A stretch of 64,000 nucleotides of DNA, taken from Candidatus Nealsonbacteria bacterium (GTDB lineage Bacteria; Patescibacteriota; Minisyncoccia; Minisyncoccales; MHMH01). A program made the position numbers and the translations under genes. Below, piece by piece: positions 6,093 to 53,500 of the stretch (positions within the stretch are counted from its first letter, which is position 1; each line of letters opens with the position of its first letter). Below the pieces are notes generated by a model. It was not told the DNA's origin. It did not search any database and saw only the letters and a program-made list of their open reading frames with translations. The DNA lies in contig JACPGX010000001.1 of NCBI GenBank assembly GCA_016188865.1, positions 141,197-205,196 of the forward strand. Direction: 5' to 3'.

Positions 6093-7319
6093 CTATCTGT
6101 AATTTTCTAAAAAATCCACGAAAGTCTTTTTAAGATATCTAAGGTGTTTTTTTTCCAGACCCTGATGGCATCCGATAAGAAAAGCGTTCTTCATAACCTG
6201 GTTGGCAACTGGATAGCCATTTTCTAATCCCCCGTGTTCAATCTTTTGGAATGCGGGCTGTTTTAGAATGTCACCGGTAAAAACCGGCCTTGTCTGGATG
6301 TTGTTTTCTTCAAGATATTTTGTTAATTCATAACGCGAAAACGGAGCTCCTTCCCTTATCAGAAGCGGAAAGATCAACCAGTTGGTTTTAACTCTCGTGT
6401 CTTGCTTGGGAAGCATAAAAAAGCGTTGATATGGCTTAAAAAAGTTTATCAGTTCAGAAAAATTTGACTGCCGGCGTTTGATAAACCCTTTTAATCTATT
6501 TAATTGCTGAAGTCCGAAAGCGCCGTTCAGTTCAGCTGATTGGAAATTGTATCCAATCTCGCTGAAAATAAACTTGGCATCATATCGCCCTCCTCCCAGC
6601 ATTCCGCTAAATCGCTTTTTAATATCCTCGGATTTTTCATAAGTACCAAAAAGAGTTGATTCTCTTCCCCAGCTGCTCATAACCAGCGCCCTCCTTGCCA
6701 ATTGGGGATCATTGAAACAAACCATGCCCCCTGCCCCGGCTGTAGTAATAATGTGGGAAGCATAAAAACTGGTTACGGAAATGTCGGTGTAGTATCCTGT
6801 TGGTTTACCTTTAAATGTAGCTCCGATGGTATCGCATGAGTCCTCAATAAGGTATAACTTGTGTTTTCTGGCGATCTCTTGAAGCCGAGATAAATCAGGA
6901 ATATTTCCAATAAGGGAAGGAATCATAAGGGCCTTGGTCTTTTTGGTGATCAAAGATTCTATCTGGTCAATATTTGCCAAATACGTTCCCTCTTTTACGT
7001 CAACAAAAACGGGTATCAGCCCCTTCTGAACAATGGGGGCCACTGTTGTTGCAAAGGTTAAAATAGGAGTAATCACCTCCGAACCTCTGGGCAAATCGAG
7101 AACCGACAGGGCAAGGAGGTTGGCCGAAGATCCCGAATTTACCATTACCCCATACTTCTTGCTGAAAAGACGCGCTATTCTGCGCTCAAATTCTTTAACG
7201 GCATTACCGGGAGCAATTCTGGTGGGATTGCTCAAAACTTCGTTAACTGCCCGTATTTCTGGCTTGCCGAAAACAGCTAAGGCAGTTGGTACCCGAAGTT
7301 TTGTTTGTGTTTTTTTCAT
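6093..7319 (-). CDS. DegT-family PMP-type NDP-4-keto-6-deoxyhexose 3-dehydratase-like enzyme (RfbH/ColD type)
   Basis: SFYASHIITTAGAGG aligns with SFYATKNITCCEGG of the neighbouring aminotransferases. His replaces the catalytic Lys, as in the E1/ColD dehydratases. Confidence 0.6.
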   Translation of the reverse strand: MKKTQTKLRVPTALAVFGKPEIRAVNEVLSNPTRIAPGNAVKEFERRIARLFSKKYGVMVNSGSSANLLALSVLDLPRGSEVITPILTFATTVAPIVQKGLIPVFVDVKEGTYLANIDQIESLITKKTKALMIPSLIGNIPDLSRLQEIARKHKLYLIEDSCDTIGATFKGKPTGYYTDISVTSFYASHIITTAGAGGMVCFNDPQLARRALVMSSWGRESTLFGTYEKSEDIKKRFSGMLGGGRYDAKFIFSEIGYNFQSAELNGAFGLQQLNRLKGFIKRRQSNFSELINFFKPYQRFFMLPKQDTRVKTNWLIFPLLIREGAPFSRYELTKYLEENNIQTRPVFTGDILKQPAFQKIEHGGLENGYPVANQVMKNAFLIGCHQGLEKKHLRYLKKTFVDFLENYR

Positions 7320-36576: not shown

Positions 36577-36597
36577 GGGAGTCCGACTCCCCCCCCC
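36577..36597. repeat. Intergenic GTCCGAC-centred hairpin followed by a C9 tract
   Basis: GGGAGTC-C-GACTCCC (36577-36591) runs into a run of 9 C (36589-36597). It lies between two GT4 genes. Confidence 0.8.
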
Positions 36598-36629
36598 AGA
36601 AATTGAATGTCTTTAATGGCGTTCGCTAG

Positions 36630-37631
36630 TCAGCCCTGTGGATAATTTATCATTCTCAAATAATTATCTGTGTATTTTTCGTTGGAAAATTTGTTTTGAA
36701 CTAACTCGCGGCCGCGCCTGCCCATTTCAACGGCTATATTTTTATTCCTTAATAAAGTTCTTAATTTTTCAGCTAGTTGCTCGACATTACCAACTTCAAA
36801 TAAGAAACCGGTCTGGCCATCTTTGACCAAATCGGGTATACCCCCCACATTGCTGGCAATTACCGGTTTCCCTAAGGCCATGGCCTCTAATATAACTCTT
36901 GGCAAACCCTCCGATAAAGATGGAACAATCAAGCAATAACAATCCCTCATTCTTTCCCTAACTTCTATCAGAGACAATTTACCATCGGGCAAACCTTCGC
37001 CCGCTAAAACCAATTTAAAATCTAAAAATTCCTGCTTAATCTTATCAAATGCTTCCACCAAATATTTTACCCCCTTAACCGGATCATTCCTTCCCACCAA
37101 TAAAACAAAATTATTGAATTTTATATCGCTTTCAGTCAAAAAATCGTCTAAATCGGTAAAGGTCGGAAAAATAAAATATGGTTTGTCGGGAGCAATTTTC
37201 TCTGCCTTATCGATAAGATATTGTGCCACTCCCCTAATCTTATCTGCGTTGCGAAAACTAAACGGAGCTAAAAAGGCAATACTCTTTTTGACTTCCCAGT
37301 CGCCGTGCATTTCAATAATCAGCTCTTTACCTAATATCTTCTTCAAAATAACTCCGACAAAACCCTCCATTAATGGCGATTGAGCCACAATAACGTCAAT
37401 TCTTTTAAACAAACACAGCCAAAAAGACAAACAAAAAGCCGAGGGCCAGAAAAAAACATTTCTGGGCAAAAGATAAAATTCTGCACCCCAAAGCTTTTTG
37501 CCAAAAGTCATTTTCCCCCGAGCCAAAACATAGGACTTTATTCCTCTGGCCAGCCCTTCGAACTTTTTTCTCAAATGGACGTCCTTTTCTAAATCATATT
37601 TAGTTACGCTGATGAATAGAACGTTTTTCAT
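36630..37631 (-). CDS. Glycosyltransferase, GT4-like
   Basis: EGLPRVILEAMALGKPVIASNVGGIPDLV. Confidence 0.8.
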   Translation of the reverse strand: MKNVLFISVTKYDLEKDVHLRKKFEGLARGIKSYVLARGKMTFGKKLWGAEFYLLPRNVFFWPSAFCLSFWLCLFKRIDVIVAQSPLMEGFVGVILKKILGKELIIEMHGDWEVKKSIAFLAPFSFRNADKIRGVAQYLIDKAEKIAPDKPYFIFPTFTDLDDFLTESDIKFNNFVLLVGRNDPVKGVKYLVEAFDKIKQEFLDFKLVLAGEGLPDGKLSLIEVRERMRDCYCLIVPSLSEGLPRVILEAMALGKPVIASNVGGIPDLVKDGQTGFLFEVGNVEQLAEKLRTLLRNKNIAVEMGRRGRELVQNKFSNEKYTDNYLRMINYPQG

Positions 37632-47717: not shown

Positions 47718-49247
47718 TTACTTCCCTAAGAGAGAGTTTAATTTTGCGCGGGTGGCGGAACCAATCAGGCCGGTTCCTTTGGTAAGACCCGAGGGAGTTA
47801 GAATATCTGAAGCATACTTTTCCTGAAATTTAATCACAGCAGTTTTAGTCAGAGGACCAAACATGCCGGTATCTAATCCTTCTGATAAAAGTCCCTGACT
47901 AATCAAAATAATCTGTAAATATTTAACTGCACTGCTAGAATGACCCTGCTTAAGAGTGCCGGTAAAAGCAAAGTCAGATGGTACCCCGGCAATACCTTCT
48001 GCGGCAGTTAATTCAGTTAATTGGACCCGCAATTGCTGAACTGCGGCCAATATCTCTATAATTTTGGCCTCCAATTCTGCTTTAGTCATTTGAGAAATTG
48101 GTTTTTCCGCTGGAATGGCCGGCGTTGCGGGAGTCGCAGGAGTTGCAGGAGTTGCTGGAACTGCGGGAGTTACTGGCGTTGCCGGCGTTGCCGGTATCGC
48201 TGGCACTGCTGGAACCGCCGTAGTTGCAGACGCCGGCGCCTCGGTTTTTAAAGTAATGGTGTCGGAAACAGCAGCCGAATTTATTCCGTCAGCGCTGACA
48301 AATTTAGCATAAACTGTTTTTACTTCGTCACCCTCGGTTAATGTCCAAGTTTTGGTTGCTGCATAATTTTCCAAAGAACAATTAAGGAAATCTGAACGGT
48401 TGCAAATAGTCATCAAACTGGCGTCTCCTGCTTTTAAAGCAAGGGTAACTGCCCTGGTATTAACAACGGCAGCTCCCGCATTGATAACCAAAGAATCAGA
48501 ATAGGTGGTTGGCGCTACCCTGTTTACTCCGCCCGCTATAGCGGCTGTGGTAGCGGCTTTGATGGTGGCATAACTTGCGCTTGTCGTGGATAGGTTAGCG
48601 ACAGTGGTAGAAGCCCATAAACTGAAATAGTAAGTATGCTCCTTAGGCAAATTATTAAAAGTTATAAATGCCACAGAAGGAAGATCTCCCCATGAACCGC
48701 TTGAAGTCGCAGTGGGATAATCAGTGCCGTCATTGTATCTAATCGCGGTTTTTATAGATCCGGTGCCTGCTGTCCATATTATTTTTATACTATCTTCCGT
48801 GCTTTTTGACGATAAACTGGTTGGCGTATCTACGCCAGTCAAAAATGTCAGCTCACTGCCATACTTTAAGTCTAGGCTGACTGCGCCATCCCCACTTGCG
48901 GAAGTGGAAGAAGCGGCGTAAGCCCTAAAATAATAGACTGTGCCGGCAGACAAACTGGTGGTTGCATGGCTAAAATTTCCGTCTCCTGAAAAAGCTCCGC
49001 TTTCCGTAGAACTCCCCATGTTGTAATTTCCTGCGCTGGCACTAGCCGTACCTAAATTAAAACCCCTTATATCATATTTTTCGGTGGCTCCGGAGATATC
49101 TATTGTTCCGCTCAAAGTAACTGAAGTAAGGCCGGTTGAGGCAGCATTAGAAGTGACACTAGTGATGGCAGCCAAAGAAACCGCTGGGGAAATTAAAAAA
49201 AACCCCCCGATAAATAATAAAGAAAGTATTAAAAAACTATTCCGCAT
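47718..49247 (-). CDS. Secreted surface protein: FN3-like repeats, Pro/Ala/Thr linker, coiled coil, C-terminal peptidoglycan-binding (PG_binding_1-like) domain
   Basis: Signal/anchor MRNSFLILSLLFIGGFFLISPAVSLA, then PATPATPVTPAVPATPATPATPATPA. The C-terminus GHSSSAVKYLQIILISQG...FGPLTKTAVIKFQEKYA fits the PG-binding repeat pattern. Confidence 0.7.
   Translation of the reverse strand: MRNSFLILSLLFIGGFFLISPAVSLAAITSVTSNAASTGLTSVTLSGTIDISGATEKYDIRGFNLGTASASAGNYNMGSSTESGAFSGDGNFSHATTSLSAGTVYYFRAYAASSTSASGDGAVSLDLKYGSELTFLTGVDTPTSLSSKSTEDSIKIIWTAGTGSIKTAIRYNDGTDYPTATSSGSWGDLPSVAFITFNNLPKEHTYYFSLWASTTVANLSTTSASYATIKAATTAAIAGGVNRVAPTTYSDSLVINAGAAVVNTRAVTLALKAGDASLMTICNRSDFLNCSLENYAATKTWTLTEGDEVKTVYAKFVSADGINSAAVSDTITLKTEAPASATTAVPAVPAIPATPATPVTPAVPATPATPATPATPAIPAEKPISQMTKAELEAKIIEILAAVQQLRVQLTELTAAEGIAGVPSDFAFTGTLKQGHSSSAVKYLQIILISQGLLSEGLDTGMFGPLTKTAVIKFQEKYASDILTPSGLTKGTGLIGSATRAKLNSLLGK
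48110..48240 (-). repeat. Coding low-complexity 9-nt-periodic tract (Pro-Ala-Thr linker)
   Basis: Repeated GGNGTTGCN units on the + strand also generate the spurious antisense GVAGVAG ORF at 48115-48312. Confidence 0.8.
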
Positions 49248-49259
49248 ATTTTTATTTAT

Positions 49260-49298
49260 CCCCCCACCTTTCAGAATACCCCACCGAAAGGTGGGAGG
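49260..49298 (-). repeat. Structured 5'-leader element with two mutually exclusive hairpins
   Basis: On the + strand, CCCCCCACCTTTC (49260-72) can pair with GAAAGGTGGGAGG (49286-98). Alternatively CCCACC (49280-85) pairs with GGTGGG (49290-95) through a 4-nt loop. Confidence 0.6.
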
Positions 49299-49335
49299 AT
49301 TTAATTAATTATTTTTAATTGCAATTGCTAAGTTT

Positions 49336-49362
49336 ATTGTACCATATGGGGGGGGCAGTCAA
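49336..49362 (-). promoter_or_regulatory. Promoter candidate, TTGACT-15-TACAAT, with extended -10 (TGG) and a C8 tract in the spacer
   Basis: The minus strand reads TTGACT G CCCCCCCC ATATGG TACAAT, about 90 nt upstream of the 509-aa surface protein ATG. Confidence 0.45.
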
Positions 49363-49414
49363 AAGAAAAGTTATCCACAGGCCTTCGCTAAAGCTATGGC
49401 CCGCAATGCACCCC

Positions 49415-50452
49415 TTAAAAACGCGATTCAAGCCAATTGGCAAAAGATTCGAATGCACTGAAAAGACTGGCTTGGGCTGCGGAAATTTGCTGCTGCAAAA
49501 GCTGAATTAATTGCGCAAGCAAATTAATGATTTTTTGCTGGAGTTCTTGAATTAAAGCCCGGAGTTCTTCTGGAGAAAGAGGACCACCGGTGCCGGTGGG
49601 AGCGGGTTCTTCTTCCTTTATTTGTTGAGGTTCGACCTCCTCGGGAGGTCGAACCTCTTCGATTTCGGGCAGTGGCAGAGTTTTAACGTCCGGGAAAACC
49701 GTTAAAGCAGAAACTAAATTTTGCCCTCGGTCGTTAAAAGCTTTTATCTGCCTTCCAGAATATTCCGTATCAGGCCTTAAGCCTGTTTCGTCAAGATAAG
49801 AAATGTTTGCTCCGCCCGAAGCTACCGTATTCAGATTCTCATCTAAAATTTTAAAGCCGAACTCATTATTGGATAAATCCGTAAAATGCCACCTGATTGT
49901 TGAAGTGGATATTGCCTCGCCTGACTTTGCCAAGGGAGAAACAGGAGCAGAAGGAGTGTCGCTTCCTGCCAGAATCATTCTTTCAAGGCCAATAATTTTT
50001 TTGTCAGTGGGACCCTTAAGACTGACGTCAGGAAAAACTGCTGAATTTATTTGTATTTCCGGTTTAATTGTTTTTCCAGTATAGGTAGTAGAAGCGATGT
50101 CTACGGTAATAAAAATCCTTTGCTTTGTAAAAGTTCCATTGAGAGTTGTGTCAAAAAAAGGAGAAAATGATTTCCTCAATTTTTCAGATTCATCGCCGTC
50201 CCAACCCGGCGAAACGCCGTCTTCATAAATTGAAAGCTGGGAAATATCATATTGCTGAACAGTTCCGGTGTTATCAATTTTTATTGAAGTTAAACCGGCG
50301 CCGGGAAGAGTCAAATCTAAAATCAAGAGGTTAGTAGTGCCAGCCGGCACAGCGTAAGTTGACTGCGGGTTGACTATAAAATCATTGGCTGTTGAAGCAA
50401 AAGAAAAACCAGGCGCTAAAACAAAAACTAAAACTAAAATAATTTTCCTCAT
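49415..50452 (-). CDS. Secreted protein with FN3-like domain and C-terminal coiled coil
   Basis: Signal peptide MRKIILVLVFVLAPGFSFAS. STIRWHFTDLSNNEFGFKILDENLN...TEYSGRQIKAFNDRG is FN3-like. The C-terminus is LRALIQELQQKIINLLAQLIQLLQQQI. Confidence 0.6.
   Translation of the reverse strand: MRKIILVLVFVLAPGFSFASTANDFIVNPQSTYAVPAGTTNLLILDLTLPGAGLTSIKIDNTGTVQQYDISQLSIYEDGVSPGWDGDESEKLRKSFSPFFDTTLNGTFTKQRIFITVDIASTTYTGKTIKPEIQINSAVFPDVSLKGPTDKKIIGLERMILAGSDTPSAPVSPLAKSGEAISTSTIRWHFTDLSNNEFGFKILDENLNTVASGGANISYLDETGLRPDTEYSGRQIKAFNDRGQNLVSALTVFPDVKTLPLPEIEEVRPPEEVEPQQIKEEEPAPTGTGGPLSPEELRALIQELQQKIINLLAQLIQLLQQQISAAQASLFSAFESFANWLESRF
49584..49599. repeat. 16-nt palindrome inside the 345-aa secreted protein gene
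   Basis: CCACCGG-TG-CCGGTGG, translated as PTGTGG. It lies 27 nt from the type B element. Confidence 0.6.
49627..49657. repeat. 31-nt perfect palindromic element (type B) inside the 345-aa secreted protein gene
   Basis: GAGGTTCGACCTCC-TCG-GGAGGTCGAACCTC (14-bp arms). Translated as EVRPPEEVEP. Confidence 0.85.
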
Positions 50453-50458
50453 TATTAA

Positions 50459-50467
50459 ATTATATCA
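50459..50467 (-). promoter_or_regulatory. Extended -10 promoter TGATATAAT, 6 nt from the ATG
   Basis: The minus strand reads GTTATGATATAAT-TTAATA-ATG, immediately after the terminator of the giant gene. Confidence 0.45.
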
Positions 50468-50469
50468 TA

Positions 50470-50496
50470 ACAAAAACGCCCCGAGAAGGGGCGTCT
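50470..50496 (-). terminator. Rho-independent terminator of the giant surface protein gene
   Basis: The minus strand reads ACGCCCC-TTCTC-GGGGCGT followed by TTTTTG. Confidence 0.65.
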
Positions 50497-50518
50497 TTGC
50501 GTTTCCACAAGGATGAAA

Positions 50519-53500
50519 CTATTTGCTCAAACTAAGCGTGGCTGTCGGGAAAGTAGCAATTTTGTACTCGTTACTCCAGTCGGTGCTGACGTAATTATGA
50601 GTAGCGCCAGAGCCAGATTGGTCTGACCAGACAAAGGTCGGAGCGGTAGAAGTGACATAGTTGTGAGCGTTCGGCGAAGCCATATCGGTGGAAGTAGCAA
50701 ATGAGGCAGCTGTGAAGAAGTTAACGGTAGAAGTAGCAGTAGCTCTCTTGGCAATCTTGGTAGAAATTGAGTCGCCGGCTTTTCCGCCGTACAAAATGTC
50801 TCCCCTTAACTCATAAGTCTTGGTTGCGCCAGCAGAAACAACTTGTTCTGTTTTTGCAACAAAGGCTACTCTGGCCCCTCCTGCGTAATAGTTGTAAACA
50901 CTAACACCTGCATCCGTTTGAACGTCAGTAGTCGTGCCGAGAATCTGATCGCCAGTGGCCACGTCGTAAACCTTGAGCGTGCTGCTGGATATCAATAGTT
51001 TGGCTACAGCGTTAAAGCTTCCTGAATCGCCCGGAGTAGTGGTGGTACCCATGTAAATACCAAAGGTAGTGGTAGCTCCACCAGCGCCGATGGTATAAGT
51101 ATCAGAACCAATCTGAACGGAACCAGACACATCAAAGATCACCTTTACCCAACCGATTGCGCCCTCTGGGCCAGCAGTCACTGTCCATCTATAGAGCGTC
51201 TTTTCGCCGGCAGAAAAAGTGGTGCTCGGCAGAGAAGACGCGGCTATTGTAGGTTTGGACTTATGAATAAGCTGCCAGTTGCCGCAAAGTTTCCCTGCAT
51301 CAGTAGTGCCGGAAGGATTAATTACAACTCCAGAGCTTACTCCTTTAACAGTGCTTGTCGCATAGCAAAGCGCAGGAGTGTCTCCGGTGGTAGCGCCCGC
51401 CTGATCAGCTGATTTTACTCCATAAAGATCTGCCTTAATGGTCAAGACCTTAGTGGTGTCTTTAGGAACTACCCAGAAAGAACCAGCTGAAAAATTAAAG
51501 GTGGTTGATGAGTTAGCTAGACCGTAGTTAACCAAAACCTGGTCTGTCCCCAATTGAGTAGTGCCATCCCACAAACTAACATTGACAAAATCAGAATCTG
51601 CAGTGGTGGTTCCGGTTCCAAATTTCCTTTCTATGACAATGGATTGTACGCTGATATCTTCTCTAGCGGCAGTAAAGTTGACTTTCGTAAAGACAACATC
51701 CTGCTTGATACTGCCAGTTGGACCAACAGTTACGATAGTTGAATCCGGAGTATCGGCTGCGCTAGTTATAGCTAAAGTACCAGAACTTTGTAAGGTAATA
51801 TAGCTTAGCGAGCTCTCGGTAGAAGTGGCAAAGTTAGCTGTGCCATGCACGCCGGTGATAGTAGTAGTCGGGGTTGTATTGGAAGAAAGACCGGTAAAGG
51901 TTACATCTCTTGTCCCATTCAATCCGCTCATGCCGGAAGCCAAATCAGAAGAGCTGGCAATACCAATAGCAACGATATCGCTCGCATTGCCGGTTGAAAG
52001 AAAATCACTTTTTACGGTAATCGTCTTCTGGGCTCCTTTGGTAATGGTAATGCCTTGCGCGTTCAAGAAGTCAGAAGCTGAAAAGGTAACGGTGGTAGCT
52101 GAAGTGGAATCCCAGCCTTTTACTGAAGTTAATCTGGTGGCTCCATCGTAAAGGGCGAAATTGGAGAAGTCTGCTTGGAATTCTGTTGCTGAAGGAGTAC
52201 CGCCTCCTTGAGAACCGGTTAATTTAATTCTGGTTATTCTGACATCTTCAGCTGAACCGGCCGTAAAGACCAAACCAACTACTGGAACCGCATCGGAGCC
52301 AATAATTATATTTTGGTCGCCGGGATTAGCTGCAGCAGAAACAGTTAAGGCACCCTGTCCAAAGGTCATGGTTTTGCCATAAACCGATGTAGCTGTTTCG
52401 GTAATGGTGGCAGTTGAAGCAGATCCTTGAGTGGTTATCTTGGTGGCATTAGTCACCTGAACGCTGCCGGTGCTCAAAGCTGTATTGCTGGGAATATCGG
52501 CCACCACTTTCAGGGTTATTGTTTCTGAAGCAGGTACTGTTAAATTAAAACTGAAAGAAGCGTTGGTAGTCGGAGAAGGGACAGTAGAACCCAACTGAGT
52601 GCCATCTAGCTTCAAAAGTTTGACATTGGTGTAATCTCCTGAAGCAGCGTTGGTGGGCGAAGACGCCGCATCGCCGCTATTCAGGTTTACTTCCAAAGAC
52701 GATACAAGCATATCTTCCCCAGAATCAGCCGTTAAATTGATTCTCATCATTTCAATGCCCGATGCTCCCTTAATAATGGTTTGAGCTGCCGGGGTATTGG
52801 CTGATAAAGCTAACGTTAAGGCTCCGCTGGCTGTAACCGTATGAAGGTTGCCATTACCGGAAGTCAAAACAATGTTAGTTGTGCTTTGGGTAATATCGTA
52901 CTTTGACTCTAAACCGTCAATCCAGATATCGCTATAAGTATCAATATCTAGATCAAGCGTGTTATTGGTCGTAGCGCCGCTCGGAACGTCAGCTTTAACT
53001 TGCAAAGTCTTGTTGCTTGACTTCGCTATATCAATGATGCCCGGGTCATCCCAGCCAATGGTGTTTGAACCAAAGGTTGCATATGAACCGATCAAAGATA
53101 CTGGGCCGCCTACCTGAGTAGTTCCGTCCCAAAGGGTGATATTGGAAATATCAGTAGCTGAACCGCTTCCATTACTGAGCTTAAGCCTTAGCTTAACCAA
53201 TCTTACGCCCTCTCTTGAACCAGCGGTAAACTTAAATGCCGAAATTAATCGGTTAGAAGTTCCCTTAACATAGTTCTGGGCAGCAGGATTGTAAGCTGCG
53301 TCAACATTAACGGTTAATGAACCCTGCCCAATAGTCATGGTGTTACCGGTTGATTTCTGATAGGCTTGGGTATCATTGTGAGAAGCTTCAATTTGCCCAC
53401 CTGAATTGGCGCCATAAGCAGTCACATCATTGAATTGAGTGATTTCAAAGATGACTGTTCGGTTTGTCCAGATTCCGGGAGCAATATCAGCGTAAGCGTA

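What the first reader, a model, noticed from the sequence alone, without database searches (positions are those of the whole stretch)
49336..49362. A poly-C tract lies inside the -35/-10 spacer of a surface-protein promoter
The minus strand reads TTGACT-G-CCCCCCCC-ATATGG-TACAAT. Both hexamers are good and TG sits at the extended -10 position, but the spacer is only 15 nt and consists largely of a C8 run. Gain of one or two C residues would bring the spacer to the optimal 16-17 nt. Spacer homopolymers that tune or phase-vary expression of outer-surface proteins are well established in Neisseria and Haemophilus. Here the regulated gene would be the 509-aa PG-binding surface protein.
Basis: partly seen in the sequence, partly recalled or inferred. 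Interest (0 to 1): 0.55.

Follow-up and report, generated by a model that had tools for sequence, protein, structure and literature searches.

The report
Conserved poly-C run in promoter spacer
An eight-cytosine run does sit inside the promoter of a cell-surface protein gene in an uncultured groundwater bacterium (Candidatus Nealsonbacteria), and 7-9-base G/C runs persist at the same spot in distant relatives, so it is a credible but unproven candidate for the slippage-based expression dial known from pathogens.

Summary
The minus strand 49362..49336 reads TTGACT-G-C8-ATATGG-TACAAT, with a 15-nt spacer and TGn at the extended -10 position. The motif match alone is not beyond chance. The promoter is validated by orthology: ten divergent lineages (45-63% protein identity) share the -10, and in five of them the ATG lies 6-8 nt after it, so the mRNA would be leaderless.

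The G/C homopolymer recurs between the TTG of the -35-like element and the -10. It is C8 in three lineages, then C9, C7, G7 (opposite strand), interrupted C6, and absent in three. TTG-to-(-10) spacers range from 13 to 17 nt. The run is therefore maintained by selection, differs by +/-1 between lineages, and does not depend on strand. That fits a slippage-prone tract.

Direct evidence of hypermutability is missing. Six assemblies all show C8, but they are clonal (0 mismatches), and no strain-level relatives are publicly available. The -35 is not conserved and the extended -10 weakens dependence on the spacer.

Verdict: a real promoter and a plausible candidate contingency locus, which would be the first described in a CPR bacterium. 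It is unproven.

The parts
49368..49379 (-). Invariant 12-mer TGTGGATAACTT. Its first nine bases are the reverse complement of the DnaA-box consensus TTATCCACA. It lies about -50..-39 relative to the predicted start and is a putative operator for a dsDNA-binding regulator.
   Evidence: It is the only exact match in the window. It is perfect in 9 of 10 orthologous promoters and has 1 mismatch in L010. It is inverted in L161. It is the only DnaA-type box in each 4-6.5-kb orthologous locus.
49357..49362 (-). -35-like hexamer TTGACT (5/6 match to TTGACA).
   Evidence: Only the TTG is semi-conserved in orthologues (TTGCCC, TTGCCG, TTGCCA, TTGACA, TTGTAT). Its distance to the -10 varies from 13 to 17 nt.
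49348..49355 (-). C8 homopolymer (G8 on the + strand) inside the 15-nt spacer. Candidate slippage tract.
   Evidence: The orthologous position holds C8 (L009, L013), C9 (L010), C7 (L152), G7 (L161) and C6TCCC (L153-155). There is no run in L011, L151 and L156. It is invariant at C8 in 6 clonal assemblies.
49336..49344 (-). Extended -10: TG-G-TACAAT.
   Evidence: The columns are invariant or nearly invariant in alignment A1. TGn is present in 9 of 10 lineages. The ATG lies 6-8 nt downstream in L009, L010, L011, L152 and L156.
49258..49300 (-). 5'-UTR hairpin that pairs UCCUCCCACCUUUCGG with CUGAAAGGUGGGGGGA and buries the G-rich Shine-Dalgarno sequence. It is specific to this lineage.
   Evidence: MFE -31.2 kcal/mol, z = -5.1, 0 of 200 shuffles as stable; inverted repeat I1. 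No Rfam family reaches threshold. It is absent from the leaderless orthologues.
47718..49247 (-). Regulated gene: a 509-aa secreted protein with a signal peptide, fn3-like repeats, a Pro/Ala/Thr linker, a coiled coil and C-terminal PG_binding_1.
   Evidence: homologues carry PF01471, PF00041 and PF16656. The synteny of a ~1400-aa gene, a ~340-aa gene, the ~500-aa gene and a convergent GT4 gene is conserved.
49415..50452 (-). Upstream 345-aa gene (MBI2450095.1, Ca. Nealsonbacteria). Its stop lies 35 nt before the box.
36589..36597 (-). The second long G/C run in the window: G9 on the coding strand, intergenic between two glycosyltransferase genes, 38 nt downstream of an AAATTATCCACA box-like sequence and ~22 nt upstream of a TTGCCA-17-TGtTAGGAT promoter.
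   Evidence: It is invariant at G9 in 4 clonal assemblies.

Best explanation
The region is the sigma-70-type, extended -10 promoter of a conserved cell-surface (peptidoglycan-binding) protein gene in a Candidatus Nealsonbacteria genome.

Between a -35-like TTG and the -10 lies a G:C homopolymer that selection has kept uninterrupted at 7-9 bp across deeply diverged lineages. The most likely reason for keeping such a tract is its mutability. Slipped-strand mispairing during replication adds or removes one C. That changes the distance between the upstream elements (the -35-like TTGACT and the invariant TGTGGATAACTT operator) and the -10.

The result would be heritable, reversible shifts in transcription of the surface protein. 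Because the TGn extended -10 should give basal activity, this would act as a volume control, not a clean on/off switch. The present C8 (15-nt spacer) would be a low or intermediate state, and C9-C10 (16-17 nt) would be stronger.

Shown here: the promoter, the tract, its conservation, and its +/-1 differences between lineages. Inferred: hypermutability within populations, and any effect on expression.
For: (1) The promoter is real. The -10 with TGn aligns across 10 lineages, and five have a leaderless geometry.

(2) The tract is selected, not chance. Runs of 7 or more occupy the same ~25-nt segment in 6 of 10 lineages whose proteins are only 45-63% identical. They fall on both sides of the deepest split of the protein tree. 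The rest of the intergenic DNA is unalignable. In each orthologous locus this is the only intergenic G/C run of 7 or more.

(3) Length differs between lineages (C7, C8, C8, C8, C9, G7), and so does the TTG-to-(-10) spacing (15, 15, 15, 16, 16). So slippage-size changes have occurred and been tolerated. L010 is the predicted '+1' allele.

(4) Strand independence. L161 carries G7 instead of a C-run in a TTGACA-15-TGcTATAAT promoter. That points to a duplex property such as slippage, not an oriented sequence signal.

(5) The run has decayed by interruption or loss in four lineages (C6TCCC, CCATCCACC, none). This is the usual fate of contingency tracts once selection lapses.

(6) Target classes are typical. 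This is a surface protein, and the window's only other long G/C run sits between glycosyltransferase genes.

(7) G8 tracts are already hypermutable in a species lacking mismatch repair (C. jejuni, 1e-4 to 1.6e-3 per division, with an insertion bias at G8; PMC8355987).

(8) Normal promoters in this genome have 16-17-nt spacers, so 15 nt is suboptimal.
Against: - No length variation is seen where it could be looked for. C8 is found in 6/6 assemblies and G9 in 4/4 from the SRR121133xx-SRR121134xx runs. However, these are 100% identical to the window over up to 5.8 kb, so they represent one clonal population and consensus calls only.
- Exactly C8 in three deep lineages could equally mean that the length is constrained.
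- The -35 hexamer is not conserved. L009 lacks a TTG, and lineages with no run have spacers of 13 and 15 nt. With a TGn extended -10, the -35/-10 spacing may therefore matter little.
- From my recollection, C8 is shorter than the classic Neisseria promoter tracts.
- The mismatch-repair status of this organism is unknown (one search found nothing relevant).
- No transcription start site or expression data exist.
Confidence: 0.45

Rival explanations
1. Static promoter architecture. The G:C run is a fixed structural or recognition element of this promoter, for example a rigid A-philic spacer segment or part of the site of the protein that binds TGTGGATAACTT. It is kept for what it is, not for its mutability, and its length is effectively constant within populations.
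For: - C8 is identical in three deeply separated lineages, and the overall range is narrow at 7-9.
- No variation is seen in any assembly.
- The run usually starts 5-7 nt after the invariant box (L009, L010, L013, L153).
- The same order of DnaA-type box, short T-rich linker, then C-run is seen at oriC-like DnaA-box clusters in unrelated taxa (L147, L150).
Against: - The run's position relative to the box (5-12 nt) and to the -10 (5-15 nt) is not fixed.
- It is dispensable in three or four lineages that keep the box and the -10.
- It occurs on the opposite strand in L161, where the box is also inverted.
- No other promoter in the window has such a run.
Confidence: 0.3
2. A neutral relic or compositional accident. 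The run has no function and sits in a promoter by chance or by shared ancestry.
For: The hexamer match is not beyond chance. The lineages share ancestry, so the ten promoters are not independent observations.
Against: - At 45-63% protein identity the flanking intergenic sequence is saturated, yet uninterrupted runs of 7-9 persist in six lineages.
- My estimate for a run of 7 or more in a 25-nt segment at this composition is about 1e-3 per lineage.
- An independent G-strand run occurs in L161.
Confidence: 0.1
3. Replication-origin-type element. The DnaA box, G/C cluster and AT-rich DNA form a DnaA-dependent unwinding module (oriC or a DnaA-titration site), not a promoter feature.
For: The box matches TTATCCACA 9/9. 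It is followed by a G/C cluster and then AT-rich DNA. The same layout is seen at multi-box oriC-like regions in other taxa.
Against: - There is a single box only.
- All genes on both sides are on the same strand, and GC skew is negative both before 48 kb and after 54 kb, with only a local rise over the three surface-protein genes at 48-54 kb. So there is no replichore switch.
- The AT-rich segment is a -10 with a leaderless ATG in five lineages.
- E. coli DnaA prefers closely spaced pairs of sites (PMC11317965 abstract).
Confidence: 0.03
4. RNA-level role. In read-through transcripts from the upstream gene, the C8 pairs with the G-rich Shine-Dalgarno sequence (GGUGGGGGG) and modulates translation.
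For: The inverted repeat I3 pairs the C8 region with the G6 SD region at 72% complementarity.
Against: Five orthologues with or without runs are leaderless and have no SD to pair with. L161 has a G-run instead. The SD is already sequestered by a much stronger local hairpin.
Confidence: 0.02

Closest known systems
Neisseria meningitidis porA (poly-G) and opc (poly-C) promoter-spacer tracts (van der Ende 1995 and Sarkari 1994, as listed in the references of PMC5084427)
   Same: A G/C homopolymer lies between the -35 and -10 of an outer-surface protein gene. The proposed effect is a graded change in transcription as slippage alters the spacer length.
   Different: - Here the tract is shorter (C8).
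- The promoter has a TGn extended -10 and a non-conserved -35.
- No length polymorphism within a population has been shown.
- The organism is an uncultured CPR bacterium from groundwater, not a host-adapted pathogen.
- An invariant DnaA-box-like operator sits immediately upstream.
Campylobacter intergenic and intragenic G/C tracts (PMC8355987)
   Same: G8-G10 tracts. Hypermutability is attributed to the lack of functional mismatch repair. Targets are surface structures and glycosyltransferases. A minority of tracts are intergenic.
   Different: Most Campylobacter tracts are inside ORFs and act by frameshift. Mutation rates have been measured there. Here neither the rates nor the repair status are known.
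Haemophilus influenzae hifA/hifB TA-repeat promoter (van Ham 1993, listed) and the N. meningitidis nspA poly-A promoter tract (PMC6389960)
   Same: A simple repeat in or near the promoter spacer tunes expression of a surface protein.
   Different: The repeat unit differs (TA or A, against C). Those cases are experimentally verified.
DnaA-regulated promoters (PMC8203912)
   Same: A perfect TTATCCACA box lies next to core promoter elements. DnaA is known to activate or repress transcription from such boxes.
   Different: There is a single box, with no evidence of DnaA binding. The target, a surface protein, is not a known DnaA regulon class. Another regulator could recognise the 12-mer.

Membership tests
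SSR-mediated transcriptional phase variation (promoter-spacer homopolymer) | The homopolymer lies between the -35 and -10 elements of a functional promoter. | tested here: met
   The C8 lies between TTGACT and TGgTACAAT. The -10 is validated by orthology and leaderless geometry. The -35 is inferred only.
SSR-mediated transcriptional phase variation (promoter-spacer homopolymer) | Tract length is polymorphic within a population or among strains of a species. | tested here: inconclusive
   6/6 assemblies are C8, but all are clonal with 0 mismatches. The protein clusters at 90% identity have no other members. No reads are available.
SSR-mediated transcriptional phase variation (promoter-spacer homopolymer) | Orthologous tracts differ in length between related lineages. 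| tested here: met
   C7, C8, C8, C8, C9, G7, C6-interrupted and none x3 across ten lineages.
SSR-mediated transcriptional phase variation (promoter-spacer homopolymer) | The tract is long enough to be hypermutable in the host's repair background. | tested here: inconclusive
   C8 equals the shortest mutable class in mismatch-repair-deficient C. jejuni. The mutS/mutL status of this genome could not be examined.
SSR-mediated transcriptional phase variation (promoter-spacer homopolymer) | Expression level changes with tract length. | not testable with these tools
   This needs reporter fusions or allele-resolved transcriptomics.
Extended -10 (TGn) sigma-70 promoter | TG at -15/-14, one base upstream of a TAnnnT -10 hexamer. 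| tested here: met
   TGG-TACAAT. TGn is present in 9 of 10 orthologues.
Extended -10 (TGn) sigma-70 promoter | The transcription start lies ~7 nt downstream of the -10. | tested here: inconclusive
   It is indirectly supported: the ATG lies 6-8 nt after the -10 in five orthologues. No 5'-end data exist for the window.
DnaA box / DnaA-controlled site | A 9-mer matching TTATCCACA. | tested here: met
   9/9 match in nine lineages and 8/9 in L010.
DnaA box / DnaA-controlled site | Clustered or paired boxes. | tested here: not met
   There is one box per locus. The nearest other boxes in the window are more than 7 kb away.
DnaA box / DnaA-controlled site | DnaA binding. | not testable with these tools
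   This needs EMSA or ChIP with the cognate DnaA.
Chromosomal replication origin (oriC) | A switch in gene orientation and GC skew at the site. | tested here: not met
   Genes are collinear on the minus strand across the whole window. Skew is negative both before 48 kb and after 54 kb, with only a local rise over the surface-protein genes.
Invertible-promoter switch (fimS type) | Inverted repeats bracket the promoter. | tested here: not met
   No flanking inverted-repeat pair was found. The only inverted repeats are the UTR hairpin, a CDS palindrome and weak A/T-rich pairs.

The most novel reading that the evidence does not exclude
A composite control module governs the principal cell-wall-anchored surface protein of Nealsonbacteria and is conserved across the group. 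It consists of an invariant DnaA-box operator, a slippage-prone G:C tract and an extended -10. The gene's expression would then be coupled both to the state of the replication initiator (or another box-binding regulator) and to stochastic tract-length switching.

This would be the first contingency locus described in the Candidate Phyla Radiation. It would imply that these episymbionts diversify their surface within clonal populations, for example against hosts or phages. The G9 next to a second box-like sequence between glycosyltransferase genes at 36.6 kb would be a second member of the same 'phasome'.
Probability: 0.12. Interest if true: 0.75.

Novelty: new member of a known kind. Interest (0 to 1): 0.5.

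Why it matters
Phase variation through simple repeats is regarded mainly as a strategy of host-adapted pathogens. The literature held here contains no report of it for CPR/Patescibacteria. These organisms are ultra-small, uncultured and probably episymbiotic, and their surface proteins are thought to mediate attachment to host cells.

A selectively maintained, slippage-sized G/C tract in the promoter of a conserved surface protein would give a concrete locus for testing whether these organisms use stochastic surface variation. The test can be done from existing metagenomic reads.

Independently of that, the invariant TGTGGATAACTT box and the leaderless extended -10 geometry are among the few comparative anchors for how CPR promoters are built and regulated.

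Tried and rejected
1. Tract variation in independent assemblies. Six assemblies of this locus and four of the G9 locus show no variation, but all are 100% identical to the window, so this was uninformative and does not refute the idea.
2. Strain-level relatives. The 90%-identity clusters of the neighbouring proteins have only one member each, and the 509-aa sequence itself is not in the collection. The closest homologue is 61% identical.
3. Genome-collection scan for box + C6 or longer. It only re-found L009 and L013, so it is not usable as a census.
4. Metagenome scan. It gave 18 hits, none from this gene family.
5. Reading promoter states from N-terminally over-called homologues. None were extended.
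6. Known RNA family in the leader. Nothing reached threshold.
7. Invertible-promoter switch. No bracketing inverted repeats were found.
8. oriC. Rejected on gene orientation and skew.
9. The spurious 47-aa ORF 49315-49458 that spans the tract. It is not conserved and overlaps the promoter, so I rejected it.
10. A shared box upstream of the neighbouring ~340-aa gene. It is absent; a different motif is present there.
11. The G8 in L153. It lies inside the UDP-glucose dehydrogenase CDS (GTG GGG GGG GCG, the Rossmann motif), so it is not a promoter tract.
12. Mismatch-repair status of CPR bacteria from the literature. Nothing usable was found.

Full report
**1. What is there**

On the minus strand, 49362..49336 reads TTGACT G CCCCCCCC ATATGG TACAAT.
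- The spacer is 15 nt.
- TG lies at the extended -10 position (TGn).
- The ATG of a 509-aa ORF (47718-49247) follows 88 nt later.
- The ORF has a signal-peptide-like N-terminus and a C-terminal PG_binding_1 domain.
- The neighbouring proteins are annotated in NCBI as Candidatus Nealsonbacteria (MBI2450095.1 and MBI2450093.1, on a 271-kb contig).
- The window is 40% GC, 93% coding, and almost entirely transcribed from the minus strand.

**2. Is it more than chance?**

The tract is unusual. Only two G/C runs of 7 or more occur in 64 kb, this one and a C9/G9 at 36589-36597. About 0.3-0.4 runs of 8 or more are expected from composition (my arithmetic). Both are intergenic.

The hexamer match is not unusual on its own. 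A strict scan (at least 10/12 matches, TGn, spacer 14-19) finds only this site, but shuffled sequence gives 2.2. The standard scan missed it because of the 15-nt spacer.

Other intergenic regions of the window show classical TTGAC(A/T)-16/17-TAnAAT promoters. So sigma-70-type promoters are used here, and 15 nt is short for this genome.

**3. Comparative evidence for the promoter**

Full-length homologues of the 509-aa protein exist at 45-61% identity. I retrieved nine further lineages with their upstream DNA. Most keep the synteny of a ~1400-aa gene, a ~340-aa gene, the ~500-aa gene and a convergent GT4 gene.

Alignment A1 shows invariant columns in only two blocks.

The first block is the -10 region.
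- TGn-TAnAAT is present in 9 of 10 lineages.
- In five lineages (L009, L010, L011, L152, L156) the ATG lies 6-8 nt after the -10 hexamer. That is a leaderless arrangement, and it independently fixes the transcription start.

The second block is a 12-mer, TGTGGATAACTT.
- It starts 35-40 nt upstream of the -10.
- It is perfect in nine lineages and has one mismatch in L010.
- It is present in inverted orientation in L161.
- Its first nine bases are the exact reverse complement of the DnaA-box consensus TTATCCACA (consensus cited from PMC8203912).
- It is the only such box in every orthologous locus.
- It is absent upstream of the neighbouring ~340-aa gene.

**4. The homopolymer across lineages**

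Between the box and the -10, the lineages carry the following:

| Lineage | -35-like hexamer | Spacer (nt) | Run |
|---|---|---|---|
| window | TTGACT | 15 | C8 |
| L013 | TTGCCC | 15 | C8 |
| L009 | none (TTTCCC) | 20 | C8 |
| L010 | TTGCCC | 16 | C9 |
| L152 | TTGCCG | 16 | C7 |
| L161 | TTGACA | 15 | G7 (opposite strand) |
| L153-155 | TTGCCC | 17 | C6TCCCTC (interrupted) |
| L151 | TTGCCA | 15 | none |
| L156 | TTGACT | 13 | none |
| L011/L012 | TTGTAT | 17 | none |

On a protein tree, the run-bearing lineages lie on both sides of the deepest split. The surrounding non-box intergenic sequence is unalignable.

The simplest reading has four parts:
- The G:C run is ancestral and has been kept uninterrupted by selection in most lineages.
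- It has changed by +/-1.
- It has been recreated or retained on the other strand in one lineage.
- It has decayed or been lost in three or four lineages.

Strand independence and a floating position argue against an oriented sequence signal. The run lies 5-12 nt from the box and 5-15 nt from the -10. Both points favour a property of the duplex tract itself. The obvious candidate is slippage, and DNA stiffness is the alternative.

**5. What could not be shown**

The defining feature of phase variation is length heterogeneity within a population, and it could not be tested properly.
- Six Logan assemblies covering the tract all show C8. Four covering the G9 all show G9.
- Every one of these contigs is 100% identical to the window over up to 5.8 kb. 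They therefore sample one clonal groundwater population, and they are consensus calls only.
- No protein more than 90% but less than 100% identical to the flanking genes exists in the 15-billion-protein collection. No strain-level comparison is possible from public assemblies.
- The contig breaks near the locus are explained by a 14-bp perfect palindrome in the upstream CDS (49627-49657), not by tract heterogeneity.

**6. How it most likely works**

I commit to the following model.

An extended -10 promoter drives a surface-protein gene. The promoter's upstream contacts are the -35-like TTGACT and a regulator bound at the box. A slippage-prone C8 separates them from the -10.

C8 gives a short 15-nt spacer. 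A gain of one or two C residues would bring it to 16-17 nt, and L010 is a natural 16-nt allele.

The TGn motif should sustain basal transcription, so I expect graded modulation and not a strict on/off switch.

In C. jejuni, which lacks functional mismatch repair, G8 tracts mutate at about 1e-4 to 1e-3 per division with an insertion bias (PMC8355987). So C8 is not too short in principle.

Points against the model:
- The -35 is poorly conserved.
- Lineages with no run have 13- and 15-nt spacers.
- C8 is identical in three deep lineages.
- There is no population evidence.

I put this model at about 0.45. A static structural or operator role for the run gets about 0.3, a neutral relic about 0.1, and oriC-type or RNA-level roles a few per cent each.

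**7. The origin idea**

A DnaA box followed by a G/C cluster and then AT-rich DNA resembles origin unwinding modules. My scans did pick up multi-box oriC-like regions with that layout in other taxa (L147, L150).

Here, however:
- there is a single box;
- gene orientation does not switch, and GC skew is negative on both sides of the surface-protein genes;
- the AT-rich part is a -10 with a leaderless start codon.

DnaA does act as a transcription factor through such boxes (PMC8203912). E. coli DnaA prefers paired sites (PMC11317965 abstract). Whether DnaA or another protein binds the 12-mer remains open.

**8. Comparison with known systems and novelty**

The closest analogues are the porA poly-G and opc poly-C promoter tracts of N. 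meningitidis (references listed in PMC5084427) and the intergenic G/C tracts of Campylobacter.

The architecture meets the positional criterion and the between-lineage criterion. The within-population and expression criteria are untested.

The held literature has no paper linking phase variation or homopolymeric tracts with the Candidate Phyla Radiation.

I classify it as a candidate new member of a known kind. It has one unusual addition, the invariant DnaA-box-like operator.

**9. Other features**

- The window's 88-nt leader folds into a 17-bp hairpin that buries the G-rich Shine-Dalgarno sequence (-31.2 kcal/mol, z = -5.1). It matches no Rfam family and is lineage-specific.
- The second long tract, G9, lies between two glycosyltransferase genes. 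It is 38 nt downstream of a box-like AAATTATCCACA. By my arithmetic, such a co-occurrence has a chance probability of about 0.004, but its geometry differs from the promoter described here.

Noticed in passing
window 49368-49379 (minus strand): An invariant 12-mer TGTGGATAACTT, a perfect DnaA-box sequence, lies 35-40 nt upstream of the -10. It is conserved in all ten orthologous promoters and inverted in L161.
   Followed up: yes
window 49258-49300 (minus strand): The 5' UTR forms a 17-bp hairpin (MFE -31.2 kcal/mol, z = -5.1) that sequesters the G-rich Shine-Dalgarno sequence GGUGGGGGG. A competing local hairpin, CCCACC-UUUC-GGUGGG, would free it, so this may be a translational switch. No Rfam family matches, and the hairpin is absent from the leaderless orthologues.
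   Followed up: partly
window 36589-36648: The window's only other long G/C run (G9 on the coding strand) is intergenic between two GT1/GT4 glycosyltransferase genes. It is 38 nt downstream of a box-like AAATTATCCACA at the end of the upstream CDS and ~22 nt upstream of a TTGCCA-17-TGtTAGGAT promoter. It is invariant in 4 clonal assemblies.
   Followed up: partly
window 49627-49657: A 14-bp perfect palindrome (GAGGTTCGACCTCC TCG GGAGGTCGAACCTC) lies inside the 345-aa CDS. Four Logan contigs begin exactly here, so it acts as a de Bruijn assembly breakpoint.
   Followed up: partly
L011 ~1280-1320, L013, L153, L156 (window 50490-50515): Just after the stop of the ~1400-aa surface-protein gene there is a conserved motif, CCGCATCTTTCTTCCTTGTGAGAGATTGAGCGG (the window has a shorter CCTTGTGGAAACGC). 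It is followed by an intrinsic terminator and a TGnTATAAT promoter with a leaderless ATG for the ~340-aa gene.
   Followed up: no
L001 1729-1783 / L006 (window 50465-50521): The Logan gene calls extend the 1425-aa ORF 54 nt through its TAG stop to the next TGA, although the DNA is identical to the window. This is probably a gene-caller artefact, but I did not check it for stop-codon reassignment.
   Followed up: no
L144 1894-1921 and L140 5459-5488: Two homologous GC-rich metagenome contigs carry the box, then TTTT(T)C(A/T), then a C-run, then ATTAATACC. The run is C8 in one and C11 in the other, which is a real example of length change in a box-adjacent C-run in an unrelated taxon.
   Followed up: no
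L036, L083, L095, L098, L109, L065: A near-identical ~70-nt sequence occurs in taxonomically diverse genomes (Competibacter, Anaerolineae, Bacillota, Albidovulum): CTGTGGATAACTTTCACGTCCGGCGCCTCCCCCCAGACCCCCCTGAAA.CGAGTTCGCTTCGCTCAC. It looks like the end of a mobile element.
   Followed up: no
L069 (Saccharibacteria) minus strand ~6485-6550: Another CPR promoter has the same flavour: box, then a C-rich stretch, then TTGACA-C9TCCCCTGA-TAGTAT (17-nt spacer made largely of C9). It lies upstream of a small membrane-protein ORF.
   Followed up: partly
window 49195-49208 (minus strand, codons ~14-18 of the 509-aa gene): A G6T8 double homopolymer lies inside the signal-peptide coding region. It is a potential frameshift-prone site and is identical in all assemblies that cover it.
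   Followed up: no
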